From Candidatus Omnitrophota bacterium (GTDB taxonomy: Bacteria; Omnitrophota; Gorgyraeia; Zapsychrales; Fredricksoniimonadaceae), in NCBI GenBank assembly GCA_015232565.1, contig JADFZK010000010.1:987-64986 (forward strand): 64,000 nucleotides of DNA, given 5' to 3'. The translations under genes were made by a program, and so were the position numbers. The notes under the pieces were generated by a model, which saw only the letters and a list, made by a program, of their open reading frames with translations, did not search any database and was not told the DNA's origin. Below, piece after piece: positions 2,135 through 50,312 of the stretch. Every line of letters starts with the position of its first letter. Position 1 is the stretch's first letter.

Positions 2135-2317
2135 TTACTTCATGCCCAGCTTTTGCAAAAGCCACATCATCGGGCACCAGTTGGTAAAAGCCGATTGTAA
2201 AAGATTAAGCGCAATGAAAGCGGTGAACCACAGCCAAAGCGGGCTCACCAGATGCGCCAGCAACAGGCTGACCAAAAGAAACGTTCCGGCGATACCACGC
2301 AACATGCGCTCGATCAT
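2135..2317 (-). CDS. DUF2892/YgaP-like small inner-membrane protein
   Basis: This 60-aa protein has two TM segments and an MIERMLRGIAG...NWCP pattern typical of DUF2892. It is translationally coupled (ATGA) to the upstream RND gene. Confidence 0.45.
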   Translation of the reverse strand: MIERMLRGIAGTFLLVSLLLAHLVSPLWLWFTAFIALNLLQSAFTNWCPMMWLLQKLGMK

Positions 2318-5300
2318 AAAGCACCCCCCTTTGGTTTCATCATCATATAGTAGATCACCGGTATTGCGGTGCGCGACAACAACGTGGATGCCACTTCACC
2401 GGCTATTAACGCCAGCGCCAGACCCTGGAAGATCGGGTCGAACAAAATGACCGACGCGCCCACCACCACCGCGGCGGCGGTTAAAAGCATGGGCCGAAAC
2501 CGCTTGGCCCCGGCATCCACCACCGCTTCTTCCAGCGACATGCCTTCCCGGCGGCGCAGTTCGATAAAATCCACCAGGATGATAGCGTTGCGCACCACTA
2601 TCCCGGCCCCGGCGATCATGCCGATCATGGACGTGGCGGTAAAGAAAGTGCCGGTCATCCAATGGGCGGGCAGTATGCCGATCAGCGTCAGCGGAATAGG
2701 GAACATGATGATCAGCGGGGTCTTGAAAGACTGGAACCACCCGACGACCAAAGCGTATATCAAGAGCAAGACGATCGCAAAAGCGATCCCCAGGTCGCGA
2801 AAGACCTCGTAGGTCACCTGCCACTCGCCGTCCCATTTTACCGACCACCGCTCCCCGCCTTCCGGCATGGCCGTGAATAACTGATCCACCTGCTTCTGCT
2901 CACCGCCGGGCGGGACCAAAGCCGCGATCCGCGGCTTGAGGCTCAGGATAGCATAGACCGGGCTTTCCAGGCTGCCCTGCACATCGCCGGTAACATAGGC
3001 CACCCGTAAAAGGTTCTTATGATAAAGCACGGGATCGCGAAACCCTTCCTCCACGGTCACCAGGTCGCGCAAAGGGATCCGGTTGCCATAGCGGGACAAT
3101 ACCGCAACCTCCAGCACTCCGTCGAGCGACTGGCGTTTCTCGGCCGGCAGGCGCAAAACTATCTCGACGGGCTCGTTCTCACCGGACAAATGCGCCACAT
3201 CCGCGGCATTGCCTTTCAGGCTTTCGGCTACCAGGCCGGCGATAACTCCCGGAGACACGCCGTTAAGGGAAGCCAGGCGGGTGTTGATCCTTAAACGGTA
3301 AAGCTTTTCGGGCCGGGCGTTGAACGTATCGACATCGGTCACGTTATTATCGGACCGGAAAAGTTTTTCGATATCCTCGGCCAGCTGACGGCGGCCGGCC
3401 TCGGTGGGGCCGTAAACTTCGGTTACCAGCGTAGACAATACCGGCGGCCCCGGAGGCACTTCGGCCACCTGCACCCGGGCGCTGTATTTGGCCGCGATCG
3501 CGTGGATCTGCGGACGCACCGCCACTGCTATCGCATGGCTCTGGCGCTTACGTTCATCCTTACCCGCCAAATTAACCTGCAGATCCGCCTGCCAGGGGCT
3601 GGAACGCAGAAAATAATGCCGCACCAGGCCATTGAAATTATACGGAGCGCTGGCCCCGACATAGGCCTCGATATCACGCACTTCCGGAACAGTCTTGAGG
3701 TAATCGGCCATTTCATTGATAGCCCGGGCAGTCACCTGGACCGGGGTGCCTTCCGGCATATTAAGCACCACCTGGAATTCATTCTTGTTATCAAAAGGCA
3801 GCATCTTCACCTTAACCGCCTTAAGCGGCACCAGCAGGATGGACAAAAACAAAAGCCCGCCCATCGCCAAAAGGAAGTTCTTGCGCACCCGGGGCTTTTC
3901 AATAAGCGGTTTCATATACCAGCGGTATAACCGGGTGAGCCAGTCTTCCCGCTCGCCGTCCACATGCTCCTTAAGCGCCCCTTTTTGATGCGCCCCGCCG
4001 AGGATCCGGCACGCCGCCCAGGGTGTGGCCACAAAAGCCACCATCATGGATATAAGCATGGCCAGACTGGCGCCAATGGGGATCGGTCGCATATACGGAC
4101 CCATCAGCCCGCTGACAAACGCCATCGGCAGGATGGCCGCGATAACCGTTAAAGTGGCCAGGATAAGCGGGCCTTGCACCTCATTTACCGCGTCGATCGC
4201 GACCAGCAGGATATCCCGCCCGCGGTTTTTGGCCATGCGCAAATGCCGCACAATATTTTCCACGTCGACGATAGGGTCGTCCACCAGGATGCCGATCGAA
4301 AAGATCAGAGCAAAAAGAGTAATGCGATTAAGAGTGAACCCCATAAAGTAAAAACCGGCCAGGGTCAGCGCCAGCGTCATCGGAATAGCCACCGCCACCA
4401 CCCCCGCCTCACGCCAGCCAAGAACAAAACCGATGAGCACACTGACGCCCAGGACCGCCAGGGCCATATGGAAAAGCAATTCGTTGGATTTTTCCTCGGC
4501 GGTGTGCCCGTAATCGCGCGTTACGGTATATTCCACACCCGCCGGAATAACTCCGCCGCGCAAACCCTCCACCTTCTTTAATATCCTGCCGCATAACTGC
4601 GCGGCATTGGTGCCCTTGCGCTTGGAGACCGCCAGGGTGGCCGCCGCAAAAGGCCCCTTGTCCGCCACCGGCGAGTTTACGCCAAAGCGGATATTCACCG
4701 CACGGTCTTCCTGGTCCGGCCCGTCTACCACCCGCGCCACGTCCTTTAAATACACTTCGCCGCCCTGGCTCACGCCCACCACCAAATTCTCCAGGTCGCT
4801 TTTGGAACGAAAGAAAGCATCCGCTTCCACAAAGATCAGGTCCCGGTCGCCCTCGAGCTTGCCGGCCGCCTGCTTAACATTAGCGCGTTGGATAATAAGG
4901 GCGATCTCGGCCGGGTCAAGGATCCGCTCCCTGAGCCGGGCTCCGTCGAGCTCTACCCGGAACTGGCGCAAACGGCCGCCGGTTATCAGCGTTTCGGAAA
5001 CGTCCGGGATCGCCGCCACTTCATTCTGCACGTTGGAGACCACCTTGCGCAGGGCCACTTCGTCCAGCCGGGCCGCATGAAATGTCAAGGCCAGCACCGG
5101 CACATCGTCGATAGACCGCACTTTAATAAAAGGCTGAGTGCCGCCTTTGGCCAGCGAATCCAGGTTGGCATTCACCTTGCTGTAAAGCTTGATCAGGCTT
5201 CTTTCCACATCCTCGCCCACCTTGAAACGCACCGTGATAACGGCGCCTTCCGGGCGGATCATGGAATATATATATTCCACGCCGTTGATCTCCCAGAGCC

Positions 5301-5532
5301 GGCGCTCGCCCACGTTCACCACCCGCCGCTCCACCTCCTCGGTGCTGGCGCCGGGATAAGACACGAATATATCGAACATCGGCACGCTGATCTGCGGCTC
5401 TTCCTCGCGCGGCAGGTTAAGCACCGCCAGCAGGCCGATGACCACCGAGAAAATAATGATCAGGGGCGTAACCTTGGAACGGGCAAAAGCCCCGATCACT
5501 TTACCGATAAAACCGCTTTCCGAAGGCTCCAT
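2314..5532 (-). CDS. RND efflux transporter permease (AcrB/CzcA superfamily)
   Basis: The protein is about 1070 aa with 12 TM segments and two large periplasmic loops, the classic RND layout. The likely start is MEPSESGFIGK at 5532, preceded by a GAGGA Shine-Dalgarno site. The ORF-track start at 5592 would overlap the upstream gene. Confidence 0.9.
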   Translation of the reverse strand: MEPSESGFIGKVIGAFARSKVTPLIIIFSVVIGLLAVLNLPREEEPQISVPMFDIFVSYPGASTEEVERRVVNVGERRLWEINGVEYIYSMIRPEGAVITVRFKVGEDVERSLIKLYSKVNANLDSLAKGGTQPFIKVRSIDDVPVLALTFHAARLDEVALRKVVSNVQNEVAAIPDVSETLITGGRLRQFRVELDGARLRERILDPAEIALIIQRANVKQAAGKLEGDRDLIFVEADAFFRSKSDLENLVVGVSQGGEVYLKDVARVVDGPDQEDRAVNIRFGVNSPVADKGPFAAATLAVSKRKGTNAAQLCGRILKKVEGLRGGVIPAGVEYTVTRDYGHTAEEKSNELLFHMALAVLGVSVLIGFVLGWREAGVVAVAIPMTLALTLAGFYFMGFTLNRITLFALIFSIGILVDDPIVDVENIVRHLRMAKNRGRDILLVAIDAVNEVQGPLILATLTVIAAILPMAFVSGLMGPYMRPIPIGASLAMLISMMVAFVATPWAACRILGGAHQKGALKEHVDGEREDWLTRLYRWYMKPLIEKPRVRKNFLLAMGGLLFLSILLVPLKAVKVKMLPFDNKNEFQVVLNMPEGTPVQVTARAINEMADYLKTVPEVRDIEAYVGASAPYNFNGLVRHYFLRSSPWQADLQVNLAGKDERKRQSHAIAVAVRPQIHAIAAKYSARVQVAEVPPGPPVLSTLVTEVYGPTEAGRRQLAEDIEKLFRSDNNVTDVDTFNARPEKLYRLRINTRLASLNGVSPGVIAGLVAESLKGNAADVAHLSGENEPVEIVLRLPAEKRQSLDGVLEVAVLSRYGNRIPLRDLVTVEEGFRDPVLYHKNLLRVAYVTGDVQGSLESPVYAILSLKPRIAALVPPGGEQKQVDQLFTAMPEGGERWSVKWDGEWQVTYEVFRDLGIAFAIVLLLIYALVVGWFQSFKTPLIIMFPIPLTLIGILPAHWMTGTFFTATSMIGMIAGAGIVVRNAIILVDFIELRRREGMSLEEAVVDAGAKRFRPMLLTAAAVVVGASVILFDPIFQGLALALIAGEVASTLLSRTAIPVIYYMMMKPKGGAL

Positions 5533-5542
5533 AGAATTATCC

Positions 5543-6919
5543 TCAGTTCCCGTTGGTGATCCCGGCCGAGACCGCTTTAATCCCGTCGGCATTCAGCTGA
5601 CCGCTTAAGAACAACAAACGCGCCCGGGACGTGATCAAGCCCCAGCGCATTTCCGCCAGCGCGCTGGCCGCACTCAGCCGGGCATCGCGCGCATCTTCCA
5701 GATCGGTGATCGATTTCCGACCCTCGCTGTACAACGGCAGTAACATTTCAACCGCCCGGGCGGAGTCTTCGGCCATAGCCAGCACTACCGGATAATTAGC
5801 TTGTAACGCTTCGTAACGCGCGTTTTCCCGCGCCAGGTCGCTGGCGGCCGTATCCCGCAGGGCCTGCTGTTGTGCCAAAGCCAGCTCCAGCAAAGCGCTG
5901 GCTTCCTTTATACGGCCGGAACGGGCCGGGTCAAATAATGGCAAATCAGCCACCACCCCCAGCGCTGCGTTATTACCTCCCCGATCACCCAGGTCACGGC
6001 GATTATTAGTGCCATCGGCCGTTAAAGTAACGGTGGGCAGGATACTATCGCGAGCGCGTAAAACCTCTTCCCGCCGGGCATTTACCCGCGCCGCCAGCGC
6101 CACAAAGTCCGGTCGCGTTTCCTGGGCCTGGGCCAGCAAGTCCGCCGCCGGCACCCCGGCCGGTTCGGCCTTACCGGCTGACAGCGGCAAAGTAAATTCA
6201 CTGGCCAACGGAGCACCTCTCATAATATTCAGCAACAACCGCATACTCTTCACCTGACGGGTCAGCTCGTTGCGCGCCTGGCTAAAGCGTCCCGCACGGA
6301 CCCGGGCGGCATAAAAATCGGCCCCCAACACCAGGCCCTTGTCCTTAAGGTCCTGGGCCTTTTTAAGATCCTCGCCCGACGCGCTCACAGCTTCCTCGGC
6401 AATAACCAGCATTTGTTCCAGGGCCAGGGCGCCGGAATAAGCATCGTGCGCCAGCAGGAAGGCCTCCATAACCACGAATTTCTCGTCGGCCTGTGCGGCC
6501 TTGACCTGTTCACGGGCCGCACGCGCCGTGCGCACCGTGCGCATGGCGTCGAACAAGGGCCAGCGCAAATGTACCCCGCCCTGCAGGTCACGCTGATGGC
6601 GCGGAGTGTTTAAACGATTTAATTCGAAATCGGATTGGCTAAACCGCTCCTGACGCAACAACATGCCAAACACATTTACCGGATCATCGCTTTCGCTAAA
6701 CCCGGCCGTCACCGACAGGCTGGGCCAGAACCCGGCCGAGGCCTGCATTTTGCGCGCCCAGCTCAATTCCACCTCGGCCGCGGCCGAACGCAATCCGGGA
6801 TTATGCTCCACGACCTGCTGATAAAATTGATCAAAAGCCAACGACGGCGCCTCGGCGGCTTGCGCCCCGGCGGCCGCCAAAATGGTAACCAGCATCAGAC
6901 AAAATGATCGTATTCGCAT
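5543..6919 (-). CDS. TolC-like outer membrane efflux protein (OMF)
   Basis: It has a signal peptide and two repeated alpha-helical/coiled-coil halves typical of the OEP family. The start is refined to MRIRSFC at 6919, preceded by GGAGGA. Confidence 0.8.
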   Translation of the reverse strand: MRIRSFCLMLVTILAAAGAQAAEAPSLAFDQFYQQVVEHNPGLRSAAAEVELSWARKMQASAGFWPSLSVTAGFSESDDPVNVFGMLLRQERFSQSDFELNRLNTPRHQRDLQGGVHLRWPLFDAMRTVRTARAAREQVKAAQADEKFVVMEAFLLAHDAYSGALALEQMLVIAEEAVSASGEDLKKAQDLKDKGLVLGADFYAARVRAGRFSQARNELTRQVKSMRLLLNIMRGAPLASEFTLPLSAGKAEPAGVPAADLLAQAQETRPDFVALAARVNARREEVLRARDSILPTVTLTADGTNNRRDLGDRGGNNAALGVVADLPLFDPARSGRIKEASALLELALAQQQALRDTAASDLARENARYEALQANYPVVLAMAEDSARAVEMLLPLYSEGRKSITDLEDARDARLSAASALAEMRWGLITSRARLLFLSGQLNADGIKAVSAGITNGN

Positions 6920-6936
6920 AGCTATCCTCCGGTCAT

Positions 6937-7290
6937 TCAAATTTTAACTTGATAAACATAGGCCGCAACTGTTTCCACACAACCCAGGCAAGACAATTTA
7001 TGGCCGGCCCGGATCTCGCGGCATTTAGTGGAACCGGCCCGTTCCCGCAGGGCGCTTTCGCATTCTTTTATAATGGAAGACGGCGCTTTATCCAACAGAA
7101 ACCGGGCGGCGTAAAGAGAGCCGCATTCGCCCTCCGGCGCCCGGCCGCCGCCGTGCCCGGCAAAACGCGCGACCGTATCATCACTATAACTGAATTTGTC
7201 CTTGAAAGCATTTATTATAGTTTGCGCACAGTTCAGTTTGGCGTGGCCGTCTTTACCTGCATAATGGGCCCGGGCTTTTTCTATAGACAT
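6937..7290 (-). CDS. C_GCAxxG_C_C family putative redox-active protein
   Basis: The motifs NCAQTI, GGG...GECGSL, GSTKCREI and SCLGCV match the C_GCAxxG_C_C signature layout. Confidence 0.7.
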   Translation of the reverse strand: MSIEKARAHYAGKDGHAKLNCAQTIINAFKDKFSYSDDTVARFAGHGGGRAPEGECGSLYAARFLLDKAPSSIIKECESALRERAGSTKCREIRAGHKLSCLGCVETVAAYVYQVKI

Positions 7291-7302
7291 AAAGTTACCT
7301 CC

Positions 7303-7620
7303 TTATATTCTTTGGCTGCCGGCCCTTTCGCGCGCCAGCAAACGTGGGCAGTTTATCTTGATAGTTTTGCCCTTCACCAGCGCTTCGGCGATCTTGGCAT
7401 GCGCGCGCGCCACAGTATTCCCGAAAGTCTGGCGGGAAACCTTCATGCGCCGGGCGGCGTCGGCCTGATACAAGCCTTCCAGGTCGGCCAGGCGTACCGC
7501 TTCCAGCTCGTCCACCTCCAGCGCCACCTCTTGCCTAACGTCATCCGCGACGCCTTGCGGCTGGAAATAGAAAGCCTTAAGGTCCAAACAGATCTTGCGC
7601 TCCTTGCGCGGCCGGGGCAT
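7303..7620 (-). CDS. UPF0251/DUF134 DNA-binding protein
   Basis: The N-terminus MPRPRKERKI...YFQPQG and a C-terminal sigma-70 region-4-like HTH (VSRQTFGNTVARAHAKIAEAL) fit the family. The start is refined to MPRPRK, preceded by GGAGGGGAAG. Confidence 0.75.
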   Translation of the reverse strand: MPRPRKERKICLDLKAFYFQPQGVADDVRQEVALEVDELEAVRLADLEGLYQADAARRMKVSRQTFGNTVARAHAKIAEALVKGKTIKINCPRLLARERAGSQRI

Positions 7621-7650
7621 TATCTTCCCCTCCGCACAATTAATTGCCAC

Positions 7651-7826
7651 CCACTAATTATTAGCATATGCCAATAATAAAAGCTTTGGCCTGGAATGTC
7701 AAGGATGAAAATTCTACATTGATATTGGAAATATAATGTGTCCCGGTTTTCATGAACAGGAAACTTGACACCAGATTGAAACACTATTAGAATGTCAAAA
7801 TTGTTTAATAACAATAACGCGGATAA
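7651..7826. promoter_or_regulatory. AT-rich divergent intergenic region with repeated TGACA/ATGTCAA half-sites
   Basis: The region contains ggaatgtcaagg, cttgacaccag and gaatgtcaaaatt, i.e. TTGACAC...ATGTCAA palindromic arrangements. It lies between the divergent UPF0251 gene and the HTH regulator gene. Confidence 0.3.
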
Positions 7827-8414
7827 ATGATTTTTATGAAAGAATTTCTTTCCACGACCGAAGCTTCGAAGCTGTGCCAGGTGAACCGGCTTACCGTTAT
7901 CAACTGGGCCAACAAAGGGATCATACCGACGCACAAGACCCCTGGCGGCCACCGGCGCATCCTGAAAGACGACCTGCAAAAATTCATGAAGGAACACGGC
8001 ATGGACGCGGGCGGCTCGGAACTGGCTTCACCGGAAACCAGCTTTCGCTGGTGCTGGGACTACCACAAGGACGAGAAGTTCAAGAACCATAAATGCCGCG
8101 GCTGTCTGGTGCACCTGACCAACGCTAAAAAGTGCTACATGTTGCGCGAGAAAGTCGGGCATAAACGTATCTTTTGTAAAAACAACTGCGACGCCTGCCA
8201 GTACCGCAAGGACTACCTGGACAACTTTCAATGGTGCTGGGAGTTCCATCGCGAGAACGGCGCCTCCGGCCACAAGTGCACGGAATGCGTGGTCTTTCAA
8301 TCCGGAATCAAGAAATGCTACATCCTCCGCGAGGAAACCGGGCACAAAAAGATCTTCTGTAAAGCCGACTGCCAGGACTGCGATTATTATAAGAGAGTGG
8401 CGACCCAGCGCTGA
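7827..8414 (+). CDS. Excisionase/MerR-type HTH (HTH_17) regulator fused to two tandem Cys-rich repeats
   Basis: The N-terminus LSTTEASKLCQVNRLTVINWANKGIIPTHKTPGGHRRI is an HTH_17 domain. It is followed by two ~58-aa repeats, each of the form F.WCW.[FY]H..(7)HKC..C...(9)KCY.LRE..GHK.IFCK..C..C. Confidence 0.6.
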   Translation: MIFMKEFLSTTEASKLCQVNRLTVINWANKGIIPTHKTPGGHRRILKDDLQKFMKEHGMDAGGSELASPETSFRWCWDYHKDEKFKNHKCRGCLVHLTNAKKCYMLREKVGHKRIFCKNNCDACQYRKDYLDNFQWCWEFHRENGASGHKCTECVVFQSGIKKCYILREETGHKKIFCKADCQDCDYYKRVATQR

Positions 8415-8416
8415 AA

Positions 8417-8453
8417 GCCCCCTCCCCACACTCCGTTCGGCAGCGGGGGAGGG
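8417..8453. terminator. GC-rich hairpin between convergent genes
   Basis: The stem pairs ccccctcccc with gggggaggg around a 17-nt loop. The U-tract is weak. Confidence 0.3.
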
Positions 8454-10373: not shown

Positions 10374-12296
10374 TTAGACCCTAACCAGCCTTCGGCCCTT
10401 GCCTTCGCGGACAGTGACCCCCTGCTCATCAAAATACTCCAGTATTGGCACCGCCTGGTTACGGGAAAAACCGGTAACCTGCCGGAACGCTCCCAACTCC
10501 ACCACCGGACATTTCTCAAACAAAACTTTAAGCTTTTTAAGGCCGGCATTCACCTCGGCCGCCGACAGCAAATAATGATCCGCCGCCACCACCAGCCCCT
10601 CCTCGATCAACAGCCGCACCAGGAACTGCATTTCCTGGTCGGTAGCATTCAACCGGGCCTGCAGGGGCGCATACGGCGCCACGCCGTGTTCCGCGCCCAG
10701 CACCGCTTTTAAGATCAGCTCCTTCTGCACCTCCTGCCGGGCGCTCAACTCCGGGCTGTAGCCTCTTAAAGCCAGAACATTCTTCTCGACCACAATACGT
10801 TCACTATCCAGAAAAAGCGCCCGGATCCCGTCCCAACAAGCCGGATCCAGCCCCAGTGCGGAGCAGGCCTGCGCGCCGGGCATACCGCGGGCCGCCTTAT
10901 TGTCTTTATGATAACGGGCCAGTACGGCCGCCAGTTTCTCCTCCAGTTCCGCCACCCGATCAGCGGCAATCCACTGTGCCGGACCGACCGGCCGAAGAAC
11001 CCCGGCTTCCACCTTGGCAGCGACAATAGCCCGGCTGTTAACATTACCCGCCAACCCGGGCAGCACGCTGGAGTCAATGATCGTAAAACAACCCGCCAAA
11101 AGCTCGCTTTGAAACGGATCCTGCCCGGCGGCCGCCTGCCGCGCCCGTTCCAGCCTTTCCGGCGTCAAATAGGCCTTCTTCCGGCGCGGATCCACATTAC
11201 AGCTCAGGATCACCCCGCCGGCAATAGTCGCCGCCGGAGAAAGTGTGCGCAAAAGGAACCGGTCGCCCGCCGCCACCACCATCGGCTCGCCGGACTCCAC
11301 CTGCATGAACCCCTCCTCGCCGGGGCCCAGCGTATTGCGCCCCGTCAACAAACCCCACACCACCCGGGTAAACGTGCCGCAACAAAAACGCATTTCCTGC
11401 CGACGCTTGATGACCGCCGATTCATGCACATTGCGGACCGCCAGCACCAGCGCACCGGTCTCCTTAAAAACACCCGGTGCCGCCAGCGTCATACCGCGCT
11501 TGATGGCCGACGCCTTTATATCCCGGATAGTAATGGCCGAACAGGTATGCGCCTCGGCCTCCCGGGCATCATAACCATATTTCTGCACCGCCCGGCAAGC
11601 CGTGGCCACCGGGCCGGGAAAAAGTTCCAGCTTATCCCCCACCGCACAGCGCCCCGACAAAGGTATCCCGGTAACCACCGTTCCCACGCCCGGCGGAGAA
11701 AAAACCCGCTCGATATCCATGCGGAACGCCCGTTCGGCCGCCGGCGCCCGGGACACCACGCCCACCAGGCGCTCGATCTCCCGGCGCACATCCTCCAGGC
11801 CCTCGCCCGTCCGGTTGGACAGCAAAACCACCCGGGCCGGGCCAAAACCGTTGGCCGCCAGAAAAGCCGCCACCGCTTCTTTAACTTCCTGCTGCCGGGC
11901 AGACGTTACCAGGTCGATCTTGGTGATCACCGCCATTACTTGCGGCGCACCCAGCAAACTGACGATCTTTAAATGCTCGACCGTTTGCGGCATAATGCCG
12001 TCGTCGGCAGCCACTACCAGCACCAGCACATCAATAGCCGACGCCCCGGCCACCATGTTCTTGATAAAATCTTCATGCCCCGGCACATCAATAATACCCA
12101 CCATCCGCTCGCCCGAAAGCCGGCAGGGCGCAAAGCCCAGATCGATGCTCATCCCCCGCTGTTTTTCCTCGGGCAGGCAGTCGGTATCGCAACCGGTCAA
12201 CAATTTAACCAGCGCGGTCTTGCCGTGATCCACATGCCCGGCAGTGCCCACCATTACCGGCACGACCCTTAATTCCTGTTGACCCGGCACGCTCAT
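10374..12296 (-). CDS. selB: Selenocysteine-specific elongation factor SelB
   Basis: The GTP-binding motifs GTAGHVDHGKT and DVPGHEDF are present. A long C-terminal extension with winged-helix-like repeats follows. The gene is adjacent to selA and tRNA-Sec. Confidence 0.9.
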   Translation of the reverse strand: MSVPGQQELRVVPVMVGTAGHVDHGKTALVKLLTGCDTDCLPEEKQRGMSIDLGFAPCRLSGERMVGIIDVPGHEDFIKNMVAGASAIDVLVLVVAADDGIMPQTVEHLKIVSLLGAPQVMAVITKIDLVTSARQQEVKEAVAAFLAANGFGPARVVLLSNRTGEGLEDVRREIERLVGVVSRAPAAERAFRMDIERVFSPPGVGTVVTGIPLSGRCAVGDKLELFPGPVATACRAVQKYGYDAREAEAHTCSAITIRDIKASAIKRGMTLAAPGVFKETGALVLAVRNVHESAVIKRRQEMRFCCGTFTRVVWGLLTGRNTLGPGEEGFMQVESGEPMVVAAGDRFLLRTLSPAATIAGGVILSCNVDPRRKKAYLTPERLERARQAAAGQDPFQSELLAGCFTIIDSSVLPGLAGNVNSRAIVAAKVEAGVLRPVGPAQWIAADRVAELEEKLAAVLARYHKDNKAARGMPGAQACSALGLDPACWDGIRALFLDSERIVVEKNVLALRGYSPELSARQEVQKELILKAVLGAEHGVAPYAPLQARLNATDQEMQFLVRLLIEEGLVVAADHYLLSAAEVNAGLKKLKVLFEKCPVVELGAFRQVTGFSRNQAVPILEYFDEQGVTVREGKGRRLVRV

Positions 12297-13687
12297 TACA
12301 GCTCTCCCCTGGCCAGGCACTGCAATTGCCGGGCCACCACCAGCTCTTCGCCCGCAAACAAGGTGCGCATATCAAAATATAAAGCGTTAGCCTTGACCCG
12401 GCAGAACACCGAAGGCAAGCCGGCCCTGAGATATTCCGCCGCCGCTTCCACTCCCGGCAAGCCGGCTTCGGCCTGAGCAAAACTGACCCGCACCACCCGG
12501 GTGGGTATGCCCTCATCGGGCAAGGACCCGCTGCCAACATACGCCACATCATCTTCCACCACCGCCGTAACCCCGGGCTCGGCGGCCAGGGCCCGCACAA
12601 GGACCGCCGCCCGCGCATCCAGCTCCGGGCGGGACACACTTAACATCTGGTAGAAAGGCAAAGCCTCGCGGTAAGTGTCATTTACAAAATGCAATAAGGT
12701 GGCCTCCAGCGCCGCCAGGGTAAGCTTGCACACCCGGAACATCCGCGCAAAAGGATTCCGGCGTATGCGCTCGATATATTCTTTTTTACCGCAAATGATC
12801 CCCGACTGGGGGCCGCAGATCAGTTTGTCGCCGCTAAAACACACCACTGCCGCTCCGGCGGATAACGAGGCCCGCACCAGCGGCTCATCGGCCAGGCCAA
12901 AGCCCGACAGCGGCACCAGCGACCCACTGCCGATATCGTCTATTACCGGCAGGCCCTTCTGCCGCCCCAGCCCGCACAGGCCGGCGATATCCGGCACGCC
13001 GGCAAAACCGCGCACCCGGAAATTGGAAGTATGCACATGGATCAAGGCGCCGGTATTCTCGTTGATCGCCCGCTCATAATCATGCAAATGCGTGCGGTTG
13101 GTGGTGCCGACCTCGCGCATGCTGACCTGGCTTTGGGCCATCACATCCGGCATGCGGAATTCTCCGCCGATCTCAATAAGCTGGCCGCGGCTGATGATCA
13201 CCTGCCGGCCTGCCGCCAGGGTATTAAGCACCAGCATGGTAGCCGCCGCGTTATTGTTCACCACCGTTGCGGCCTCACAACCGGTCAGCTCGACCAGCAA
13301 CCGCTCCACTTTTTCCTCACGCAAAGAACGTTTCCCGGAAGCCAGCCCGGTCTGCAGGACCGAATAGGCCCCCATCCCGCCCAGCGCCGCCACCGCCTCC
13401 CGGCATAATGGAGAACGCCCCAGCCCGGTGTGCAGTAAAACGCCGGCCGCATTTACCGCCGCACGCCCCTCGGGAGCCGCCAGGCGCGTGAGCCGCTTGC
13501 GCAAACCGGCGGCCAGTTCACCATCCCCGGGAATACCGGCCAACGCCCCCGCATTTATCCGGGCGCGCAGGCCATCGAGCAAAGCGCGCAATTCCAGCTT
13601 GACCGCGCCATTGCCAAATTCCCGGCCCAGCGCGCGCACCGCATCGAGTTCCAATAATGCGGACACTGCCGGGATCTGCTTTAATAA
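12296..13687 (-). CDS. selA: L-seryl-tRNA(Sec) selenium transferase SelA (start uncertain, probably non-ATG)
   Basis: The motifs VVNNNAAA, LIEIGGEFRMPDVM, EVGTTNRTH and SFSGDKL are SelA signatures, including the PLP-lysine region. The first 41 codons of the listed ORF (12296..13810) overlap tRNA-Sec, so the real start must lie at or below 13687. A GTG at 13669 is one candidate. Confidence 0.85.
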   Translation of the reverse strand, partial: LLKQIPAVSALLELDAVRALGREFGNGAVKLELRALLDGLRARINAGALAGIPGDGELAAGLRKRLTRLAAPEGRAAVNAAGVLLHTGLGRSPLCREAVAALGGMGAYSVLQTGLASGKRSLREEKVERLLVELTGCEAATVVNNNAAATMLVLNTLAAGRQVIISRGQLIEIGGEFRMPDVMAQSQVSMREVGTTNRTHLHDYERAINENTGALIHVHTSNFRVRGFAGVPDIAGLCGLGRQKGLPVIDDIGSGSLVPLSGFGLADEPLVRASLSAGAAVVCFSGDKLICGPQSGIICGKKEYIERIRRNPFARMFRVCKLTLAALEATLLHFVNDTYREALPFYQMLSVSRPELDARAAVLVRALAAEPGVTAVVEDDVAYVGSGSLPDEGIPTRVVRVSFAQAEAGLPGVEAAAEYLRAGLPSVFCRVKANALYFDMRTLFAGEELVVARQLQCLARGEL

Positions 13688-13782
13688 TGGCGGAGGTGTA
13701 TGGGAATCGAACCCACCAGGGGCTTTATCAGCCCCGCGACAGTTTTGAAGACTGCGAGCATCACCAGACACTGAACACCTCC
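13688..13782 (-). tRNA. selC: tRNA-Sec (selenocysteine, anticodon UCA)
   Basis: The minus-strand sequence is GGAGGTGT...CTTCAAAAC...GGTTCGATTCC...ACACCTCCGCCA. It has an 8-bp acceptor stem, a TCA anticodon, a long variable arm, a G discriminator and CCA, and is 95 nt long. Confidence 0.85.
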
Positions 13783-13922
13783 ACAATGTGCCAATTCTCC
13801 GGTCCCACAATGGCCGGGAGAAGTTAATTTATACCAACTGAATAATTTGTTCCGTTACGCTTATACCGCACTGCTGATACCCCGGCTTGAGCGCCATTCC
13901 CGATGGCGCGCAAATTGGTCGT

Positions 13923-14292: not shown

Positions 14293-14763
14293 TCACTTAA
14301 CCGTGAACGTCTTGGAGAAACCCGTCGGCCCGCCGGACTCGGTGAGCTGTCCGCTGTTATATTTGGTAAGCGCCTCCTGCACATTATTGGCCAGGCCGCC
14401 GAACACCTTGACCCCCCGGCGCATCAAATGCTCAAAAGGCTCGGGCCCCACATTCTTGGCGATCACCACCCCCACCCGCTCGCGCACCAGCAGGCGGGCC
14501 ACATGCAAACCCGCCTCATGGGTGGTATTTACAAAACGATTGGCCACAAAGATCGCCGTATTATGCTTGAAATCATAGACCGCAAAATAGGGCGCCCGCG
14601 AGAACACCGGCGATACCGGCGACAACAGCGAAGGCTCATCGGCCGGCACGGCCACCACATAAGGGAACACATGCGGCCGGAACGACAAAAGCATTACCGG
14701 GCTGAACAGCAGAAAAACGATCGGGATCAGAAAGTGATACCAGCTCAGTTTGATCGGCCCCAT
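14293..14763 (-). CDS. Membrane-anchored NifX/NafY-like (dinitrogenase FeMo-cofactor-binding domain, PF02579-type) protein
   Basis: One TM segment is followed by YVVAVPADEPSLLSPVSPVFSRAPYFAVYD...GVVIAKNVGPEPFEHLMRRGVKVF. This matches the HFGRAP.F.IYD...GIG..A...L...GI.V pattern. The start is refined to MGPIKL at 14763, giving a TAATG overlap with the upstream gene. Confidence 0.6.
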   Translation of the reverse strand: MGPIKLSWYHFLIPIVFLLFSPVMLLSFRPHVFPYVVAVPADEPSLLSPVSPVFSRAPYFAVYDFKHNTAIFVANRFVNTTHEAGLHVARLLVRERVGVVIAKNVGPEPFEHLMRRGVKVFGGLANNVQEALTKYNSGQLTESGGPTGFSKTFTVK

Positions 14764-15650
14764 TATTTCCCCCCGCGTGTGGTCTTTTTTAACGCCAGCT
14801 CTCTTTGCGGCAGGGCGCTGACCAGTTTTATGTGCTTGCAATCCGTACACTCCAGGCAACGGATACAATCCTTCATGTTCGGATCCTCATATACCTTCAT
14901 GCCTTCGGGGCATTTCTTCTGGCAAAGGTTGCACTCGGTACACCCGTCATCAACCTTGAGTTTCATAATGCTGACTTTATTGAAGAACGACCAGAACAGC
15001 CCCATCGGGCAAATGTACTGGCAGAACGGGCGCTTGGAAACCACGAACAGCCACAGCACCACTCCCAATATCGCCAGCTTCAGCGCGAACAACCAGCCCA
15101 CCGAACCCGGCTCAATTGTCGGCGCGCCAGTAGTAGGATTGATCGGATTCCATAATATCCACGGAATACCGGCAGTCACCGTGCCTACCGGGCACAATTT
15201 GGAGAACCAGTGCTCGGTAGTCAGGAACGGCAGGATAATTATGAAAATGATCAACATGATCCACGGCAAAACGCCCCAGTAATACGGTATGTCGATCTTG
15301 ACCGACTTGATCTTGTAAACCATTTCCTGGAACAGCCCCACCGGGCAAACCCAGCCGCAAACCATGCGGCCCACCAGTAATCCCACGATCATCAAATGCC
15401 CCACCAGAAAAAACGGAAACTGGTGGATAGCCGAATAGTGTTGCATGACCCCCAACGGGCAGGCGAAAGCCGCCGTGGGGCAAGAGTGGCAATACAGGAA
15501 CGGCAGGCACACGCTCTTGAACAGCCCCGTATAGATCTGGTTCTGGTAGATCACCGCCACGTAAACATTGGTAATGATCAGCCCGAAGAACTGGGTGGCC
15601 CGCCTAAAAGGATGTAACAGATTCATAATACGCCCATTAATGGTTAACAA
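14763..15650 (-). CDS. NapH/MauN-type polyferredoxin membrane protein (4Fe-4S)
   Basis: It has multiple TM helices with CxxxCP motifs (CHSCP, CGWVCPVG, CPVG, CPMG). The C-terminus carries two Cx2Cx2Cx3CP ferredoxin motifs (CTECNLCQKKCP and CIRCLECTDC). Confidence 0.7.
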   Translation of the reverse strand: MLTINGRIMNLLHPFRRATQFFGLIITNVYVAVIYQNQIYTGLFKSVCLPFLYCHSCPTAAFACPLGVMQHYSAIHQFPFFLVGHLMIVGLLVGRMVCGWVCPVGLFQEMVYKIKSVKIDIPYYWGVLPWIMLIIFIIILPFLTTEHWFSKLCPVGTVTAGIPWILWNPINPTTGAPTIEPGSVGWLFALKLAILGVVLWLFVVSKRPFCQYICPMGLFWSFFNKVSIMKLKVDDGCTECNLCQKKCPEGMKVYEDPNMKDCIRCLECTDCKHIKLVSALPQRELALKKTTRGGK

Positions 15651-15965: not shown

Positions 15966-16892
15966 TCAGGCCACCGGCAAGGCGAACTGTTTATCGGCCA
16001 GCGCACCTCCCGGATACTGGCCGCCAGCCAGCACCGCGCTATCGGCCGCCGGCACACCGCTCTTTTGCAAAAGCGCCAGCGCCCGATTGATCGGCATGGC
16101 AAAACTTATGCCTGTGAACTTGCCCTGCGGGTTATACACCGCCGTATTAATACCCACGATATCGCCGTTGATGTTCGCCAGAGGCCCGCCGCTGGACCCG
16201 GGATAAGTGTAGGACTCCGTACGGATCATATTGTGATAGGTCATCCCGCCCACCGAGAACGATTGCGTACGGTCGCACACCACGCCGGTGGTAAAAACAT
16301 TCCCCGAACCAAACGCATTACCCATGGCAAAGACCAGGTCGCCGGCGCTCACGTTATCGGAATTCCCCAGGTCGGCCGACGGCAGAACCGTAAGCGTATC
16401 GATCTTCATCAAAGCCAGGTCATTGGCCTTATCCGACAGCACCATACTGGCCGCATAAGTCATTTCGGTATTAGTCGGAGTATAAACCGTCACCTGGATG
16501 TCCGTGGCACCGCCCACCACATGATAATTGGTAAGCATATACTGGTCGGCGATGATCACGCCCGAGCCGCTCACCTGCTCCGGCACCCCGTTGATGACCT
16601 TGCCGCCGGTGATGCGGGCGCAAATATGGTTCATATTATGCGCGATGTTGTTATACACCTTCTCCAGCGAAGCCGCCGACAGCGTGGGCGCGCCGCTGGT
16701 GTAAACCGGGTGCTTATAACCGATCCAGTGTTCGGCCATCTCGATCTGGAACATATGCCAGGCCATATTAAAATTGGCCACTATCGCCACCGGAACAATT
16801 ATGCCCGTCAAAAAAATTATCCAGACCGACAATTGCACATTGTCGCTAATATTAAACCAAGCCTTATTCGGTTGCTCTTTAGGGGATATCAT
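15966..16892 (-). CDS. Membrane-anchored trypsin-like serine protease (HtrA-type catalytic domain, no PDZ)
   Basis: The real start is MISPKEQ... at 16892, which makes an ATGA overlap with the upstream ATPase gene. His is at LTNYHVV, Asp at ANDLALMK, and the nucleophile motif reads GSSGGPLAN. Confidence 0.8.
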   Translation of the reverse strand: MISPKEQPNKAWFNISDNVQLSVWIIFLTGIIVPVAIVANFNMAWHMFQIEMAEHWIGYKHPVYTSGAPTLSAASLEKVYNNIAHNMNHICARITGGKVINGVPEQVSGSGVIIADQYMLTNYHVVGGATDIQVTVYTPTNTEMTYAASMVLSDKANDLALMKIDTLTVLPSADLGNSDNVSAGDLVFAMGNAFGSGNVFTTGVVCDRTQSFSVGGMTYHNMIRTESYTYPGSSGGPLANINGDIVGINTAVYNPQGKFTGISFAMPINRALALLQKSGVPAADSAVLAGGQYPGGALADKQFALPVA

Positions 16893-17716: not shown

Positions 17717-17719
17717 AAA

Positions 17720-28557: not shown

Positions 28558-29478
28558 TTATTTCAACTTACCGCGGATATGCACCAGGCATTTGCGGCAT
28601 TTGTCTTTTTTGTCGGCGGCGCGGCCCTGCATCTGGCCGTCGCACCAGGTATGATCGATCTCCCAGCACTTGGCCCCATGATTGGGAAAGGAAGGGCACT
28701 GCACCTGGCGTTCGGGCGGGCAATTAAGGATCTCCCAGCAGTTGGATTTCATGGTCGTCGCGCAATAAACCTTCAGATCGCCGGTGTGTTTGCGCATGTC
28801 CCCGATCAGGCGGTCCCAGGCTTCCTTGCTTTCCAGATCCTTGGGTAAAGGCCGCCGCTCGATCCGTTCCAGGAACATTTCCACCTTGCGGCAATGATCC
28901 CGCAGGGCATCGAGCAAATGTTTGGTGCGCACATTTACTTCATCATCAGGCATGGCATCGCGCCATACCTCAAAGCCGCCCAGCACACGGCCTTTCTTGT
29001 CGATCAACGGCCCCGCCGAAACCACTATCGCATGCTCACGGCCCATGCGGTCGTTCACTTTCACCCTCTTGCCCACCACCGACTTACGCGTCTTCATGGC
29101 CTGCTTGATAGCGCAATGCCGCTCACAAAGGTCGCTGTTAAAGATCTGCGCGCAATTTACCTTGCCCACTGCATCGTTGAGCTTTAATCCGGTGAATTCC
29201 AGGCAAGCCGGGTTCATGAACTGGATCTTCATGTCCTTGTCGACCACAAAAAACGGGTAGGTGGAAGCGCGCAGGATGCTAACGGCAAATGCGGCCATAT
29301 CCTCAAATTCACCGAAAGCCTTGGTTTTGGATGACAGGAAATCCAGGAAATCGTTCTGGGCTCCGTCTTCTTTAGGCTCGACGACCTTTTTACTGCCATG
29401 CGAGGCTTCGGTAGTCTTTAAGGGCTGTTTAAACTCCCTGAGCTCACCCAGGATCCTGGCCATGCGATCGAAATTCAT
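28558..29478 (-). CDS. PAS-domain protein with C-terminal Cys-rich (8 Cys) putative metal/redox-sensing module
   Basis: The PAS-like core is FFVVDKDMKIQFMNPACLEFTGL...GKVNCAQIF. The C-terminus reads NCWEILNCP..(5)C..(8)CWEIDHTWCDG..(12)CRKC. Confidence 0.55.
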   Translation of the reverse strand: MNFDRMARILGELREFKQPLKTTEASHGSKKVVEPKEDGAQNDFLDFLSSKTKAFGEFEDMAAFAVSILRASTYPFFVVDKDMKIQFMNPACLEFTGLKLNDAVGKVNCAQIFNSDLCERHCAIKQAMKTRKSVVGKRVKVNDRMGREHAIVVSAGPLIDKKGRVLGGFEVWRDAMPDDEVNVRTKHLLDALRDHCRKVEMFLERIERRPLPKDLESKEAWDRLIGDMRKHTGDLKVYCATTMKSNCWEILNCPPERQVQCPSFPNHGAKCWEIDHTWCDGQMQGRAADKKDKCRKCLVHIRGKLK

Positions 29479-33361: not shown

Positions 33362-33365
33362 AAAC

Positions 33366-33497: not shown

Positions 33498-33528
33498 CCC
33501 CAACCTCCCGGTTCACACCCGCCAAATT

Positions 33529-34592: not shown

Positions 34593-34764
34593 TTTATAAT
34601 TATGTCTTTTTGTAGATTTTCACAATGAGTATACAATTTTAACATTTCAGACCAAAAAAAATTACGTCCGCCTTAACAGTCTCACAACGATTCACAACCA
34701 CTCATGAAACCCAAATCATTACCTCATATGCCATGAACCCGAAACCCGCCGGTTGCAGTGTTGC

Positions 34765-35150: not shown

Positions 35151-35221
35151 TTGCAGGTGCGCCCACGCCTGTTTTCTACCAGCAACTCATGCCAATCATG
35201 CCACCACTAAACACTTTTGTT

Positions 35222-41526: not shown

Positions 41527-41575
41527 GCCTGAAACCTTACCTTAAATAAATCGTCAGCGCCAAAGCCTGTTACCC

Positions 41576-48723: not shown

Positions 48724-49128
48724 TTAAACGTGTTCTACCGGATGAACTTTATGCCCCAACGCGGCAATATATTTACCGGAAAGAAAAGCGCCCTGTTTCA
48801 CAATATTGCCAAACTTGTGTTTCTGCTTCTCCAGGAATTGCCCAACCGCTACCGGCTCCTTGGCCCGCGCACCAAGCTCCAGCAAAGCCGCAGCCGCGGG
48901 TTCAACCGGAACCGCAGACGAAACCGCACCCGCTGAAAAATCAGCAGGTTGATCATTAACATGACTTTTTTGGAGAAGTTCCAGAACAGCGGTGCGGGGT
49001 ATACGCTGATGGCCGCCCAGAGTAGCTTCGGAACGCAGCTTGTTCTTCTTGACCCAGTTAAGGACCGTGAAGCGGGTGACGTGAAATATTTTGGCAGTTT
49101 CAGAAGTAGTTAAATAATCTGTCTGCAT
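48724..49128 (-). CDS. Excisionase/MerR-type HTH (HTH_17) regulator, first gene of the biomineralization operon
   Basis: LTTSETAKIFHVTRFTVLNWVKKNKL...GGHQRIP is the same HTH_17 type as the N-terminus of 7827..8414. Confidence 0.6.
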   Translation of the reverse strand: MQTDYLTTSETAKIFHVTRFTVLNWVKKNKLRSEATLGGHQRIPRTAVLELLQKSHVNDQPADFSAGAVSSAVPVEPAAAALLELGARAKEPVAVGQFLEKQKHKFGNIVKQGAFLSGKYIAALGHKVHPVEHV

Positions 49129-50198: not shown

Positions 50199-50312
50199 CC
50201 CGGCAATATCGATCCCCGGCTTATAAAAACAATGGATCCAGACAGTAGTCCCAAAGTAAGGCCGGATCTCATAATATTCGGTTAAAAATGTTGAAATTGT
50301 TGAATCCTTCCG

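What the first reader, a model, noticed from the sequence alone, without database searches (positions are those of the whole stretch)
7827..8414. HTH regulator fused to two tandem ~58-aa Cys/His-rich repeats; related Cys-rich module on a PAS protein at the cluster edge
After the HTH_17 domain this ORF has two copies of F.WCW.[FY]H-x7-HKC..C-x9-KCY.LRE.GHK.IFCK..C..C, about 7 Cys plus 3 His per repeat. The PAS protein at 28558..29478 ends in a different but similar-flavoured NCWEILNC...C...CWEIDHTWCDG...C..C module. A second HTH_17 protein without Cys repeats heads the mam operon at 48724..49128. These look like metal (Fe) or redox-sensing transcription factors guarding the locus. I do not recognise the repeat as a named domain.
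Basis: seen in the sequence. Interest (0 to 1): 0.6.

Follow-up and report, generated by a model that had tools for sequence, protein, structure and literature searches.

The report
Cysteine-rich DNA-binding protein beside magnetosome genes
A small DNA-binding protein that carries two copies of an undescribed seven-cysteine module sits next to, or inside, the magnetosome gene clusters of uncultured Omnitrophota bacteria, and is the best candidate so far for a cluster-encoded metal or redox switch for magnetosome genes.

Summary
The ORF is real (7827..8414 +, 195 aa; NCBI MBF0386896.1, "helix-turn-helix domain-containing protein", Candidatus Omnitrophota MAG). It has an HTH_17/excisionase-type DNA-binding domain followed by two 61-aa repeats (49% identical, E 1e-22). 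All 14 Cys are invariant in 15 orthologue clusters.

The repeat is one unit of a wider, unnamed domain with seven near-invariant Cys. An exhaustive profile search found 216 cluster representatives. Most have HTH_17 plus one copy, often followed by a receiver-like domain. No Pfam, NCBIfam or PDB sequence match was found, and Foldseek found no PDB fold match.

The PAS protein's C-terminal module is the NCBIfam "two-CW domain". Homology with the repeat is unproven (hhalign probability 40%).

Every orthologous locus with enough flank borders magnetosome genes. Relatives with one or two copies head mam/mad operons in other Omnitrophota. Elsewhere the domain sits by Hmc-like and sat/aprBA/qmo genes or is fused to DsrC.

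A 15-nt motif marks the gene's own conserved promoter and the head of the NifB-like-to-MamB operon.

Best reading: a metal- or Fe-S-binding, redox- or iron-responsive regulator linked to the magnetosome cluster. Cofactor and targets are untested.

The parts
7827..8414 (+). Gene for the HTH_17 + 2 x Cys7 protein (195 aa; probable true start at 7836, giving 192 aa). NCBI MBF0386896.1.
7845..7997 (+). HTH_17 / excisionase-type (MerR-like) DNA-binding domain, aa 7-57. The GGHRRI wing motif is invariant.
8037..8219 (+). Cys7 repeat 1 (aa 71-131): C76, C90, C93, C103, C117, C121, C124. Strongly basic (core net charge +7). The KNHKCRGCLV stretch is invariant in orthologues.
8220..8402 (+). Cys7 repeat 2 (aa 132-192): C137, C151, C154, C164, C178, C182, C185. 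Near neutral. REET.HKKI is invariant in orthologues.
7765..7793 (+). Sigma-70-like promoter TTGACA-17-TAGAAT of the gene. TTGACA and the -10 region are conserved in orthologous loci.
7790..7804 (+). 15-nt motif GAATGTCAAAATTGT overlapping the -10 and the expected transcription start. Exact copies lie at the same place in L001, L002, L005 and L006. Candidate autoregulatory operator (inferred).
7674..7702 (-). Divergent promoter-like site TTGACA-17-TATTAT for the DUF134 / C_GCAxxG_C_C / OEP / AcrB operon. Its -35 carries the second exact GAATGTCAA copy (7694-7702).
8420..8453 (+). GC-rich hairpin just after the stop codon, between the convergent genes. No U tract and a weak z-score (-1.6). Possible terminator.
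34633..34647 (-). Second exact copy of the 15-nt motif (AAATGTTAAAATTGT), 41-55 nt upstream of the ATG of the NifB-like gene. That gene heads the operon NifB-like, Fer4_5, PDZ, MamP-like, MamM, MamB, PAS/two-CW.
50286..50300 (+). Third copy of the motif (1 mismatch), in the intergenic region upstream of the ApbE gene. ApbE precedes the second HTH_17 gene and the mam operon.
28558..29478 (-). PAS protein (306 aa) directly downstream of MamB. No DNA-binding domain detected. NCBI MBF0386913.1.
28579..28743 (-). Two-CW domain (NCBIfam NF045718) of the PAS protein, aa 246-300. It also has seven Cys, with CW after Cys 1 and Cys 4.
48724..49128 (-). Second HTH_17 protein (134 aa, no Cys) at the head of the MamE-to-MamO operon. 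Its HTH is 33% identical to that of the Cys7 protein. Its tail motif GKYIA is shared with P0019, which carries Cys7 domains.

Best explanation
The gene encodes a DNA-binding protein linked to the magnetosome gene cluster of a magnetotactic Omnitrophota bacterium. It binds DNA through an N-terminal MerR-like HTH_17 domain. It carries two tandem copies of a previously undescribed ~60-aa module with seven invariant cysteines: C[W]-x11-14-CxxC-x9-C[YF]-x12-14-Cx3Cx2C. I propose that each module holds a metal centre: an Fe-S cluster and/or a tetrahedral Zn or Fe site. The Cx3Cx2C triad and the CxxC knuckle are the obvious ligand sets. I further propose that the occupancy or oxidation state of these centres reports cellular iron, sulfide or redox status and changes DNA binding or oligomerisation. 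This would tune transcription from its own promoter and from operon heads in the cluster that carry the RAATGTNAAAATTGT motif. Shown here: the domain architecture, the invariance of the Cys, the wider family, the magnetosome and redox gene neighbourhoods, the conserved promoter, and the motif enrichment. Inferred: metal binding, the signal sensed, operator identity, and the direction of regulation.
For: HTH_17 scores 45.9 bits. All 14 Cys are invariant in orthologues spanning 50-88% identity. In 139 units from the wider family, six Cys are at 100% and the seventh at 98.6%.

The family has 216 representatives at E<=1e-3. In 126 of 139 scanned members the domain is attached to HTH_17, and it is often followed by a receiver-like domain. 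This is the position where a signal-input module would sit.

Gene contexts of distant members are redox or sulfur energy metabolism: after an Hmc-like complex operon; between sat and aprBA-qmo; fused to DsrC; and beside CoA-disulfide reductase, ferredoxin, CopZ and AhpC genes.

Magnetosome linkage: the two-repeat orthologues are found only in Omnitrophota MAGs. All loci with flank adjoin magnetosome-type genes: the Tryp-SelB-SelA-PDZ-NifB-like-Fer4_5-MamE-like module, or MamB. In L017 and L018 the gene is embedded co-directionally in such an operon. One-repeat relatives head the NifB-like-to-MamB operon in L010 and L020. A two-repeat relative, P0019, is the first gene of a MamI/MamE/MamP/MamM/MamB operon.

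The promoter TTGACA-17-TAGAAT is conserved. The 15-nt motif has 3 sites in the window against 0.07 expected, all in promoter-type intergenic regions, plus exact copies in five other loci.

The duplication is old: R1 clusters with R1 and R2 with R2. Tandem copies arose independently elsewhere, as in P0017. This argues that copy number is functional.
Against: There is no direct evidence of any cofactor. The AF2 single-domain model is only moderately confident (pLDDT 76.8), and its coordinates could not be inspected, so the ligand groupings are guesses.

Seven Cys is an odd number, and the only candidate eighth ligand (His48) is replaced by F or Y in about 15% of units.

In this window the gene is convergent with the cluster, and its upstream neighbour varies between loci. 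Its targets are therefore not given by operon structure.

The motif was defined after looking at the data. Two of its copies in L022 lie inside coding sequence, and L004, L017, L018 and L020 lack it.

Cys-rich modules in DNA-binding proteins are often purely structural zinc sites.
Confidence: 0.5

Rival explanations
1. The Cys7 modules are structural zinc sites that act as oligomerisation, protein-protein or extra nucleic-acid-contact modules. On this reading the protein is an architectural, MamR-like or BldC-like DNA-binding factor of the magnetosome cluster and does not sense anything.
For: HTH_17 proteins without an effector domain are already known in magnetosome clusters: MamR is ~72 aa, HTH_17/excisionase-like, and affects crystal number and size (PMC3905215). 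The window has a Cys-free HTH_17 protein at the head of the mam operon. CxxC knuckles followed by helices in the AF2 model are typical of zinc sites. Copy number varies between 1 and 3, like zinc-finger arrays. R1 of the Omnitrophota proteins is strongly basic, with core net charge +3 to +10.
Against: Across the family the module is not basic: median net charge is 0, range -6 to +10. The module sits in the input position between the HTH and a receiver-like domain. Contexts are dominated by redox and Fe-S genes. The MamR and BldC curated thresholds are far from met: 14.7 bits against 100, and 39.2 against 77.
Confidence: 0.3
2. The repeats are divergent copies of the two-CW domain (NCBIfam NF045718), the same module that ends the PAS protein. 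The locus would then encode two outputs of one sensory domain family.
For: Both modules have seven Cys. Both have an aromatic residue after Cys 1 (CW) and after Cys 4 (CW versus C[YF]; one Cys7 unit has CW). Both have identical C3-x9-C4 spacing and end in CxxC. hhalign aligns C1, C3 and C4 of the two profiles (E 2.9e-4, probability 40%). Both occur in the same Omnitrophota clusters.
Against: The NF045718 model gives no hit at E<=1 on the HTH protein. Reciprocal HMM searches of all fetched loci give no cross-hit at E<=10. The Cys spacings differ in both flanks. The two-CW profile I could build was shallow (Neff 2.9).
Confidence: 0.3
3. It is an excisionase or recombination-directionality factor of a mobile element or genomic island that carries the magnetosome genes.
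For: TIGR01764 (excisionase-family DNA-binding domain) scores 38.9 bits against a cutoff of 28.8. There is a weak match to the IS607 transposase N-terminus.
Against: No integrase or transposase is found among the neighbours in the window or in any orthologous locus. The gene is embedded in operons with biomineralisation genes. The same architecture flanks sulfate-reduction genes in other phyla.
Confidence: 0.03

Closest known systems
NCBIfam NF045718 two-CW domain (present on the PAS protein at 28558..29478)
   Same: A small module with seven conserved Cys. An aromatic residue follows Cys 1 and Cys 4, there are nine residues between Cys 3 and Cys 4, and the module ends in CxxC. It is found on signalling proteins of anaerobes and in the same Omnitrophota magnetosome clusters.
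   Different: The curated model does not detect the HTH repeats. The spacing before Cys 3 and after Cys 4 differs. The repeat has CxxC and Cx3Cx2C where two-CW has CP...CP and C-x14-CxxC. The homology test is inconclusive (hhalign 40%). No paper describing the two-CW domain was found in the library searched.
MamR (HTH_17-type protein of alphaproteobacterial mamAB operons)
   Same: A small HTH_17/excisionase-like DNA-binding protein encoded within a magnetosome gene cluster (PMC3905215). The NCBIfam MamR model weakly matches the HTH of 90 of 139 family members.
   Different: MamR is ~72 aa and has no Cys-rich module. The window protein scores 14.7 bits against a cutoff of 100, so it is not an orthologue.
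MerR-family metal and redox sensors (SoxR [2Fe-2S], CueR, ZntR)
   Same: A MerR-type HTH joined to a C-terminal Cys-based metal or cluster site that converts a metal or redox signal into a transcriptional change. This comparison rests on general knowledge of the family. It is the mechanism I propose by analogy.
   Different: There is no long coiled-coil dimerisation helix. The Pfam MerR model is below its cutoff (26.4 against 28.2) and MerR_1 scores 13.8 against 21.6. The Cys module is a separate, repeated 60-aa domain rather than a short C-terminal loop.
BldC family (NF033787), small MerR-like HTH proteins without an effector domain
   Same: Same type of HTH (39.2 bits). From memory, BldC oligomerises head-to-tail on direct repeats. 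This would fit the AT-rich, repeat-like motif at the promoter.
   Different: The score is below the family cutoff of 77 bits. BldC has no Cys-rich extension.
HTH_17 + Cys7 + receiver-like proteins of sulfate reducers and other anaerobes (unnamed; some match NF045717, DVU0259-family receiver)
   Same: Same HTH and same Cys7 module. These are true homologues of the window protein's repeat.
   Different: They carry one Cys7 copy and a C-terminal (pseudo)receiver or DsrC domain. They flank sat/aprBA/qmo or Hmc-like genes rather than magnetosome genes. They are also uncharacterised.

Membership tests
HTH_17 / excisionase-type DNA-binding domain (PF12728, TIGR01764) | Score above the curated cutoff over the full ~50-aa domain | tested here: met
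   PF12728 scores 45.9 bits (cutoff 27), aa 7-57 against profile positions 1-50 of 51. TIGR01764 scores 38.9 bits (cutoff 28.8)..
MerR family proper (PF00376 / PF13411) | Score above cutoff, plus a C-terminal coiled-coil dimerisation and effector region | tested here: not met
   PF00376 scores 26.4 against a cutoff of 28.2. PF13411 scores 13.8 against 21.6. The sequence after aa 57 is a short linker followed by the Cys7 repeats.
two-CW domain (NCBIfam NF045718) | Match of the HTH protein's repeats to the curated model | tested here: not met
   No hit at E<=1. No cross-hit between the Cys7 and two-CW HMMs at E<=10.
two-CW domain (NCBIfam NF045718) | Remote homology of the repeat to two-CW by profile-profile comparison | tested here: inconclusive
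   hhalign gives probability 40%, E 2.9e-4, 32 aligned columns, with Cys 1, 3 and 4 aligned. The two-CW profile was shallow.
two-CW domain (NCBIfam NF045718) | Match of the PAS protein's C-terminal module to the curated model | tested here: met
   38.0 bits against a cutoff of 35, aa 246-300.
MamR (NF040990) | Equivalog score >= 100 bits | tested here: not met
   14.7 bits for the Cys7 protein and 12.7 bits for the second HTH_17 protein.
BldC family (NF033787) | Subfamily score >= 77 bits | tested here: not met
   39.2 bits.
Excisionase / recombination directionality factor | Adjacent integrase or recombinase, or a mobile-element context | tested here: not met
   None among the annotated neighbours in the window or in loci L001-L007, L010, L017, L020 and L022.
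Unnamed HTH_17 + Cys7 family (defined here) | Seven Cys in the pattern C[W]..CxxC-x9-C[YF]..Cx3Cx2C, placed C-terminal to HTH_17 | tested here: met
   Both repeats match the A4 profile (i-E 1.7e-20 and 1.6e-24). Cys conservation is shown. 126 of 139 members carry HTH_17.
Fe-S or Zn metalloregulator | Bound metal or cluster, and cofactor-dependent DNA binding | not testable with these tools
   Only sequence conservation and a moderately confident AF2 model are available. No coordinates could be inspected, and there is no solved relative.

The most novel reading that the evidence does not exclude
The Cys7 module is a new Fe-S or metal-cluster sensory domain. It would define a widespread, unrecognised family of HTH_17 regulators in anaerobes. 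These regulators would control core dissimilatory sulfur and redox operons (sat/aprBA/qmo, Hmc-like, DsrC-linked). In Omnitrophota the family would have been recruited, duplicated in tandem and placed at magnetosome operon heads, making it the first magnetosome-cluster-encoded iron or redox switch for biomineralisation. The two-CW domain on the neighbouring PAS protein would be a distant branch of the same sensory superfamily.
Probability: 0.25. Interest if true: 0.8.

Novelty: new variant of a known kind. Interest (0 to 1): 0.55.

Why it matters
Known regulators of magnetosome formation are global factors studied in Magnetospirillum, such as Fur, Fnr, OxyR-like, Crp and NsrR (titles returned). 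The three magnetotactic-bacteria genomics and gene-network papers I checked do not mention any regulator or HTH protein in Omnitrophota clusters.

A DNA-binding protein with invariant metal-ligand modules recurs at the borders and operon heads of these clusters. With its candidate operator, it gives a concrete and testable handle on how iron and redox status could be coupled to biomineralisation in uncultured lineages.

Separately, the Cys7 module is a sizeable domain family (216 representatives at 50% clustering). It has no Pfam or NCBIfam model and no solved structure. It sits next to central sulfate-reduction genes, so defining its cofactor would annotate hundreds of "excisionase family" or "hypothetical" proteins.

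Tried and rejected
- A word-index homologue search with the 74-aa two-CW segment found no candidates. The two-CW profile therefore had to be built from orthologues of the whole PAS protein and is shallow.
- Full-length AF2 with the 16-sequence alignment gave an unusable model for the Cys region (pLDDT 38-54).
- The single-domain model (pLDDT 76.8) had no Foldseek match in the PDB or BFVD.
- PDB sequence searches with both profiles gave nothing, or only chance hits to beta-microseminoprotein at E ~7.
- Literature searches for "two-CW domain", "two-CW" and "DVU0259" returned nothing relevant.
- The 9-mer GAATGTCAA is not enriched when one mismatch is allowed (18 against 12 expected). I rely only on the longer 15-nt motif.
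- AAAATTGTT alone is not significant (3 against 0.8 expected; 6 of 100 shuffles reach it).
- NF045717 (DVU0259) does not cover the Cys7 module. Eight receiver-like members gave only HTH hits.
- No remnant of a one-repeat gene was found in the 34593-35221 gap by tblastn or blastn, and there was no Rfam match there.
- The excisionase reading was rejected for lack of any recombinase nearby.

Full report
**1. The observation**

The ORF at 7827..8414 (+) exists and encodes 195 aa. It is NCBI protein MBF0386896.1, annotated only as "helix-turn-helix domain-containing protein", on a 67,996-bp contig of a Candidatus Omnitrophota MAG.

- Pfam HTH_17 covers aa 7-57 (45.9 bits against a cutoff of 27). 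The excisionase-family model TIGR01764 also passes.
- After a short linker come two units, aa 71-131 and 132-192. They are 49% identical (E 1e-22).
- Fifteen homologous clusters (50-88% identity, 191-216 aa, same architecture) were found among 5.8 billion proteins. In the alignment all 14 Cys are invariant, as are H88, H149 and H173.
- Most orthologues start at the residue matching the second ATG (7836).

The two other genes it cites are on the minus strand.

**2. What the repeat is**

No Pfam or NCBIfam model touches it, either in the window protein at E<=1 or in 139 relatives.

A profile of 24 repeat units was searched exhaustively against 1.84 billion representatives. It found 216 proteins at E<=1e-3 and 25 at E<=1e-10.

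- Nearly all have ONE copy at about aa 70-130 of a 130-280-aa protein.
- 126 of 139 scanned members carry HTH_17.
- 22 have a recognisable receiver domain, and many more have a receiver-like C-terminus.
- Two are fused to DsrC and two carry PAS domains.
- A few lineages have 2-3 tandem copies: P0016, P0017, P0019, P0020, P0046 and P0088.

In 139 diverse units, six Cys are 100% conserved and the seventh 98.6%. W after Cys 1 is at 98%, and Y or F after Cys 4 at 96%. The "GH" His is at only 68% and is replaced by F or Y. The consensus is CWE-x5-G-x5-CxxC-VY-x3-A-x2-C[YF]-x9-GH-x4-Cx3Cx2C-x-YY.

There is no relative in the PDB by sequence. An AF2 model of one unit built with the 139-sequence alignment reached pLDDT 76.8: four short helices, two of them directly after the CxxC knuckles. 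It has no Foldseek match in the PDB or BFVD. Other fold libraries were unavailable.

This is therefore an unnamed and structurally uncharacterised domain. I call it Cys7 here.

**3. History of the duplication**

R1 units are closest to the R1 units of other orthologues, and R2 to R2. The duplication therefore predates this group.

The two copies have diverged functionally:
- R1 is strongly basic (core net charge +3 to +10) and has an invariant KNHKCRGCLV stretch.
- R2 is about neutral and has an invariant REET.HKKI stretch.

In P0017, units 1 and 2 are 75% identical, which is an independent and more recent duplication. Across the whole family the core has a median net charge of 0. The module is therefore not a generic basic nucleic-acid finger.

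**4. The PAS module**

The PAS protein (28558..29478, minus strand) has PAS at aa 66-174. Its aa 246-300 match the NCBIfam two-CW domain above cutoff. No DNA-binding domain is detected.

Its family is conserved at about 50% identity in Omnitrophota and also in Syntrophales, Riflebacteria and Planctomycetota. In a Syntrophales contig it is not in a magnetosome cluster.

The two-CW module also has seven Cys, with CW after Cys 1 and Cys 4 and C3-x9-C4 spacing. However, HMM cross-searches give nothing and hhalign gives only 40% probability. "Similar-flavoured" is fair. Homology is unproven.

**5. Genomic setting in the window**

Nearly all genes are on the minus strand.

To the left of the gene, transcribed divergently from a shared 176-bp region, lie DUF134, a C_GCAxxG_C_C redox protein, an outer-membrane efflux protein and an AcrB-type pump.

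To the right, convergent with the gene, lie in order:
- a methyltransferase and an HtrA/MamE-like protease;
- SelB and SelA;
- PDZ, NifB-like and NapH-like Fer4_5 genes;
- a MamE-like protease;
- an acyl-CoA-dehydratase-type activase and three double-cubane-reductase-like genes;
- SelD and a 1585-aa ORF;
- PAS/two-CW, MamB, MamM, a magnetochrome protein, PDZ, Fer4_5 and a NifB-like gene;
- after a gap, PDZ, MamO, MamN, MamQ, MamA, a second MamB/MamM pair, MamP and MamE.

The list ends with the Cys-free HTH_17 protein at 48724..49128. The Cys7 gene and the second HTH_17 gene thus bracket the whole magnetosome region.

**6. Linkage to magnetosome genes elsewhere**

Two-repeat orthologues occur only in three GTDB species genomes, all Omnitrophota MAGs, and in metagenome contigs. 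One of the MAGs, MBPbin6, was explicitly reported as magnetotactic (PMC5955933).

| Loci | Arrangement |
|---|---|
| L001/2, L004/7, L005, L006, L015 | Convergent with the same protease (SelB-SelA-PDZ-NifB-like-Fer4_5-MamE-like follow wherever the contig extends far enough) |
| L014, L016 | Convergent with a MamB homologue |
| L017 | Embedded co-directionally in CDF, MamE-like, NifB-like, x, HTH-2xCys7, x, Fer4_5, PDZ ... CDF |
| L018 | Precedes Fer4_5 |

The upstream neighbour varies between loci.

The closest one-repeat relatives (about 47% identity) are the first gene of the operon NifB-like, 116 aa, 45 aa, Fer4_5, PDZ, magnetochrome, MamM, MamB in L010 and L020. These operons are collinear with window 34529 to 28561. 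In the window that slot is a 630-bp gene-free gap.

In another Omnitrophota MAG, a protein with two spaced Cys7 units (P0019; 31% identical over the whole architecture, E 4e-38) is the first gene of the operon FixC, FixX, MamI, MamE ... MamP ... MamM, MamB. Its HTH and its C-terminal tail resemble the window's Cys-free HTH_17 protein.

HTH_17 proteins with 0, 1 or 2 Cys7 units are therefore a recurring, positionally flexible component of Omnitrophota magnetosome clusters.

**7. Context of distant members**

- A three-repeat protein follows an Hmc-like operon with DsrM/K-like, multihaem cytochrome, Fe-S and NrfD subunits.
- A one-repeat, receiver-like protein lies between ATP sulfurylase and aprBA-qmo.
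- One member is fused to DsrC.
- Another sits among genes for CoA-disulfide reductase, ferredoxin, a CopZ-like protein, a peroxiredoxin and a P-type ATPase.

These are single examples, not a census. All point to anaerobic redox, sulfur or metal physiology.

**8. Promoter and candidate operator**

A TTGACA-17-TAGAAT promoter (7765-7793) precedes the gene, and this region is conserved in orthologous loci. It overlaps a 15-nt element, GAATGTCAAAATTGT (7790-7804).

The pattern RAATGTNAAAATTGT has three sites in the window at <=1 mismatch, against 0.07 expected (0 of 100 shuffles reached three):
- the gene's own promoter;
- 34633-34647 (minus strand), 41-55 nt upstream of the NifB-like gene that heads the operon running to MamB and PAS;
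- 50286-50300, upstream of ApbE, which precedes the second HTH_17 gene and the mam operon.

Exact copies lie at the equivalent promoter in L001, L002, L005 and L006, and twice within the P0019-headed operon in L022. The motif was derived after inspecting the data and is absent from several related loci. It is a lead, not a result.

**9. Mechanism**

Shown:
- a MerR-like HTH;
- two ancient copies of a module whose only universally conserved feature is seven Cys;
- placement of that module where input domains sit in one-component regulators;
- repeated association with magnetosome and redox operons;
- a conserved promoter of its own.

Inferred: each module ligates a metal centre. The CxxC pair and the Cx3Cx2C triad suggest one tetrahedral site plus an Fe-S cluster, or two tetrahedral sites. 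The state of that centre would control DNA binding or oligomerisation at AT-rich operators, giving autoregulation and control of cluster operons.

I put this at about 0.5. The main rival (about 0.3) is that the modules are structural zinc sites in an architectural, MamR-like or BldC-like factor. An excisionase role is very unlikely because there is no recombinase anywhere nearby.

**10. Novelty**

No paper in the searched library mentions the two-CW domain or this module. Three genomics and gene-network papers on magnetotactic bacteria do not mention a regulator in Omnitrophota clusters.

The kind of system, an HTH with a Cys-based sensor, is known. The sensory module, its tandem duplication and its magnetosome linkage are new. 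I therefore class it as a new variant of a known kind.

Noticed in passing
window 34593-35221 (IR arms 34765-34814 / 35101-35150; nested 34819-34834 / 34927-34942): A 630-bp gene-free gap inside the magnetosome cluster carries a 50-nt inverted repeat (84% complementary, 286 nt apart) and a nested 16-nt inverted repeat. In the collinear loci L010 and L020 this exact slot holds the one-repeat HTH+Cys7 gene. No remnant of that gene and no Rfam family were found. It may be a MITE-like insertion or deletion scar, or a structured RNA.
   Followed up: partly
window 10374-13810 (SelB, SelA), 21391-22983 (SelD with an AhpD-like C-terminus), 16889-21361 (activase + three double-cubane-reductase-like genes): Selenocysteine machinery and a double-cubane-cluster reductase system with its ATP-dependent activase are interleaved with MamE-like, PDZ, NifB-like and Fer4_5 genes. 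The arrangement is conserved in other Omnitrophota magnetotactic MAGs (L001, L004, L005, L006). This suggests selenoproteins or a low-potential reductase in this type of magnetosome cluster. I did not look for in-frame TGA codons.
   Followed up: partly
window 29478-31273 and 40618-42472; 14293-15650 and 32519-34592: There are two MamB/MamM pairs and two paralogous NifB-like/Fer4_5/PDZ sets (28-45% identity between paralogues). The cluster therefore looks like two or three modules. In L020 the Sel/double-cubane module is absent between PAS and the DUF134 operon.
   Followed up: partly
L020:6906-8000 and L021:8374-9657: The PAS/two-CW protein lies next to or near a CDF transporter fused to a Nitro_FeMo-Co (NifB/NifX-like) domain, both in a magnetotactic Omnitrophota contig and in a non-magnetotactic Syntrophales contig. 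Its conserved partner may be this transporter rather than the magnetosome genes.
   Followed up: no
window 2314-7650; L020:9037-12909: The operon DUF134 / (methyltransferase) / C_GCAxxG_C_C / OEP / AcrB borders the magnetosome region in both the window and L020. In L020 a Fur-family gene is adjacent. In the window the methyltransferase lies on the other side of the Cys7 gene, which implies a local rearrangement around it.
   Followed up: partly
L011:4526-9755, L013:4496-5638, L008:2164-8801: Distant HTH+Cys7 proteins sit between sat and aprBA-qmo, are fused to DsrC, or follow an Hmc-like complex operon. This hints at an unrecognised regulator family for dissimilatory sulfur metabolism.
   Followed up: partly
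window 23662-28419 (-): A 1585-aa ORF lies between SelD and the PAS/two-CW gene. I did not scan it against any family library. Its sequence shows repeated ~45-aa helical units of the form 'G..T...LE.RL'.
   Followed up: no
window 7827 versus 7836: The annotated start (MIFMKE...) is probably 9 nt too far upstream. Ten of 15 orthologues begin at the MKE... methionine.
   Followed up: yes
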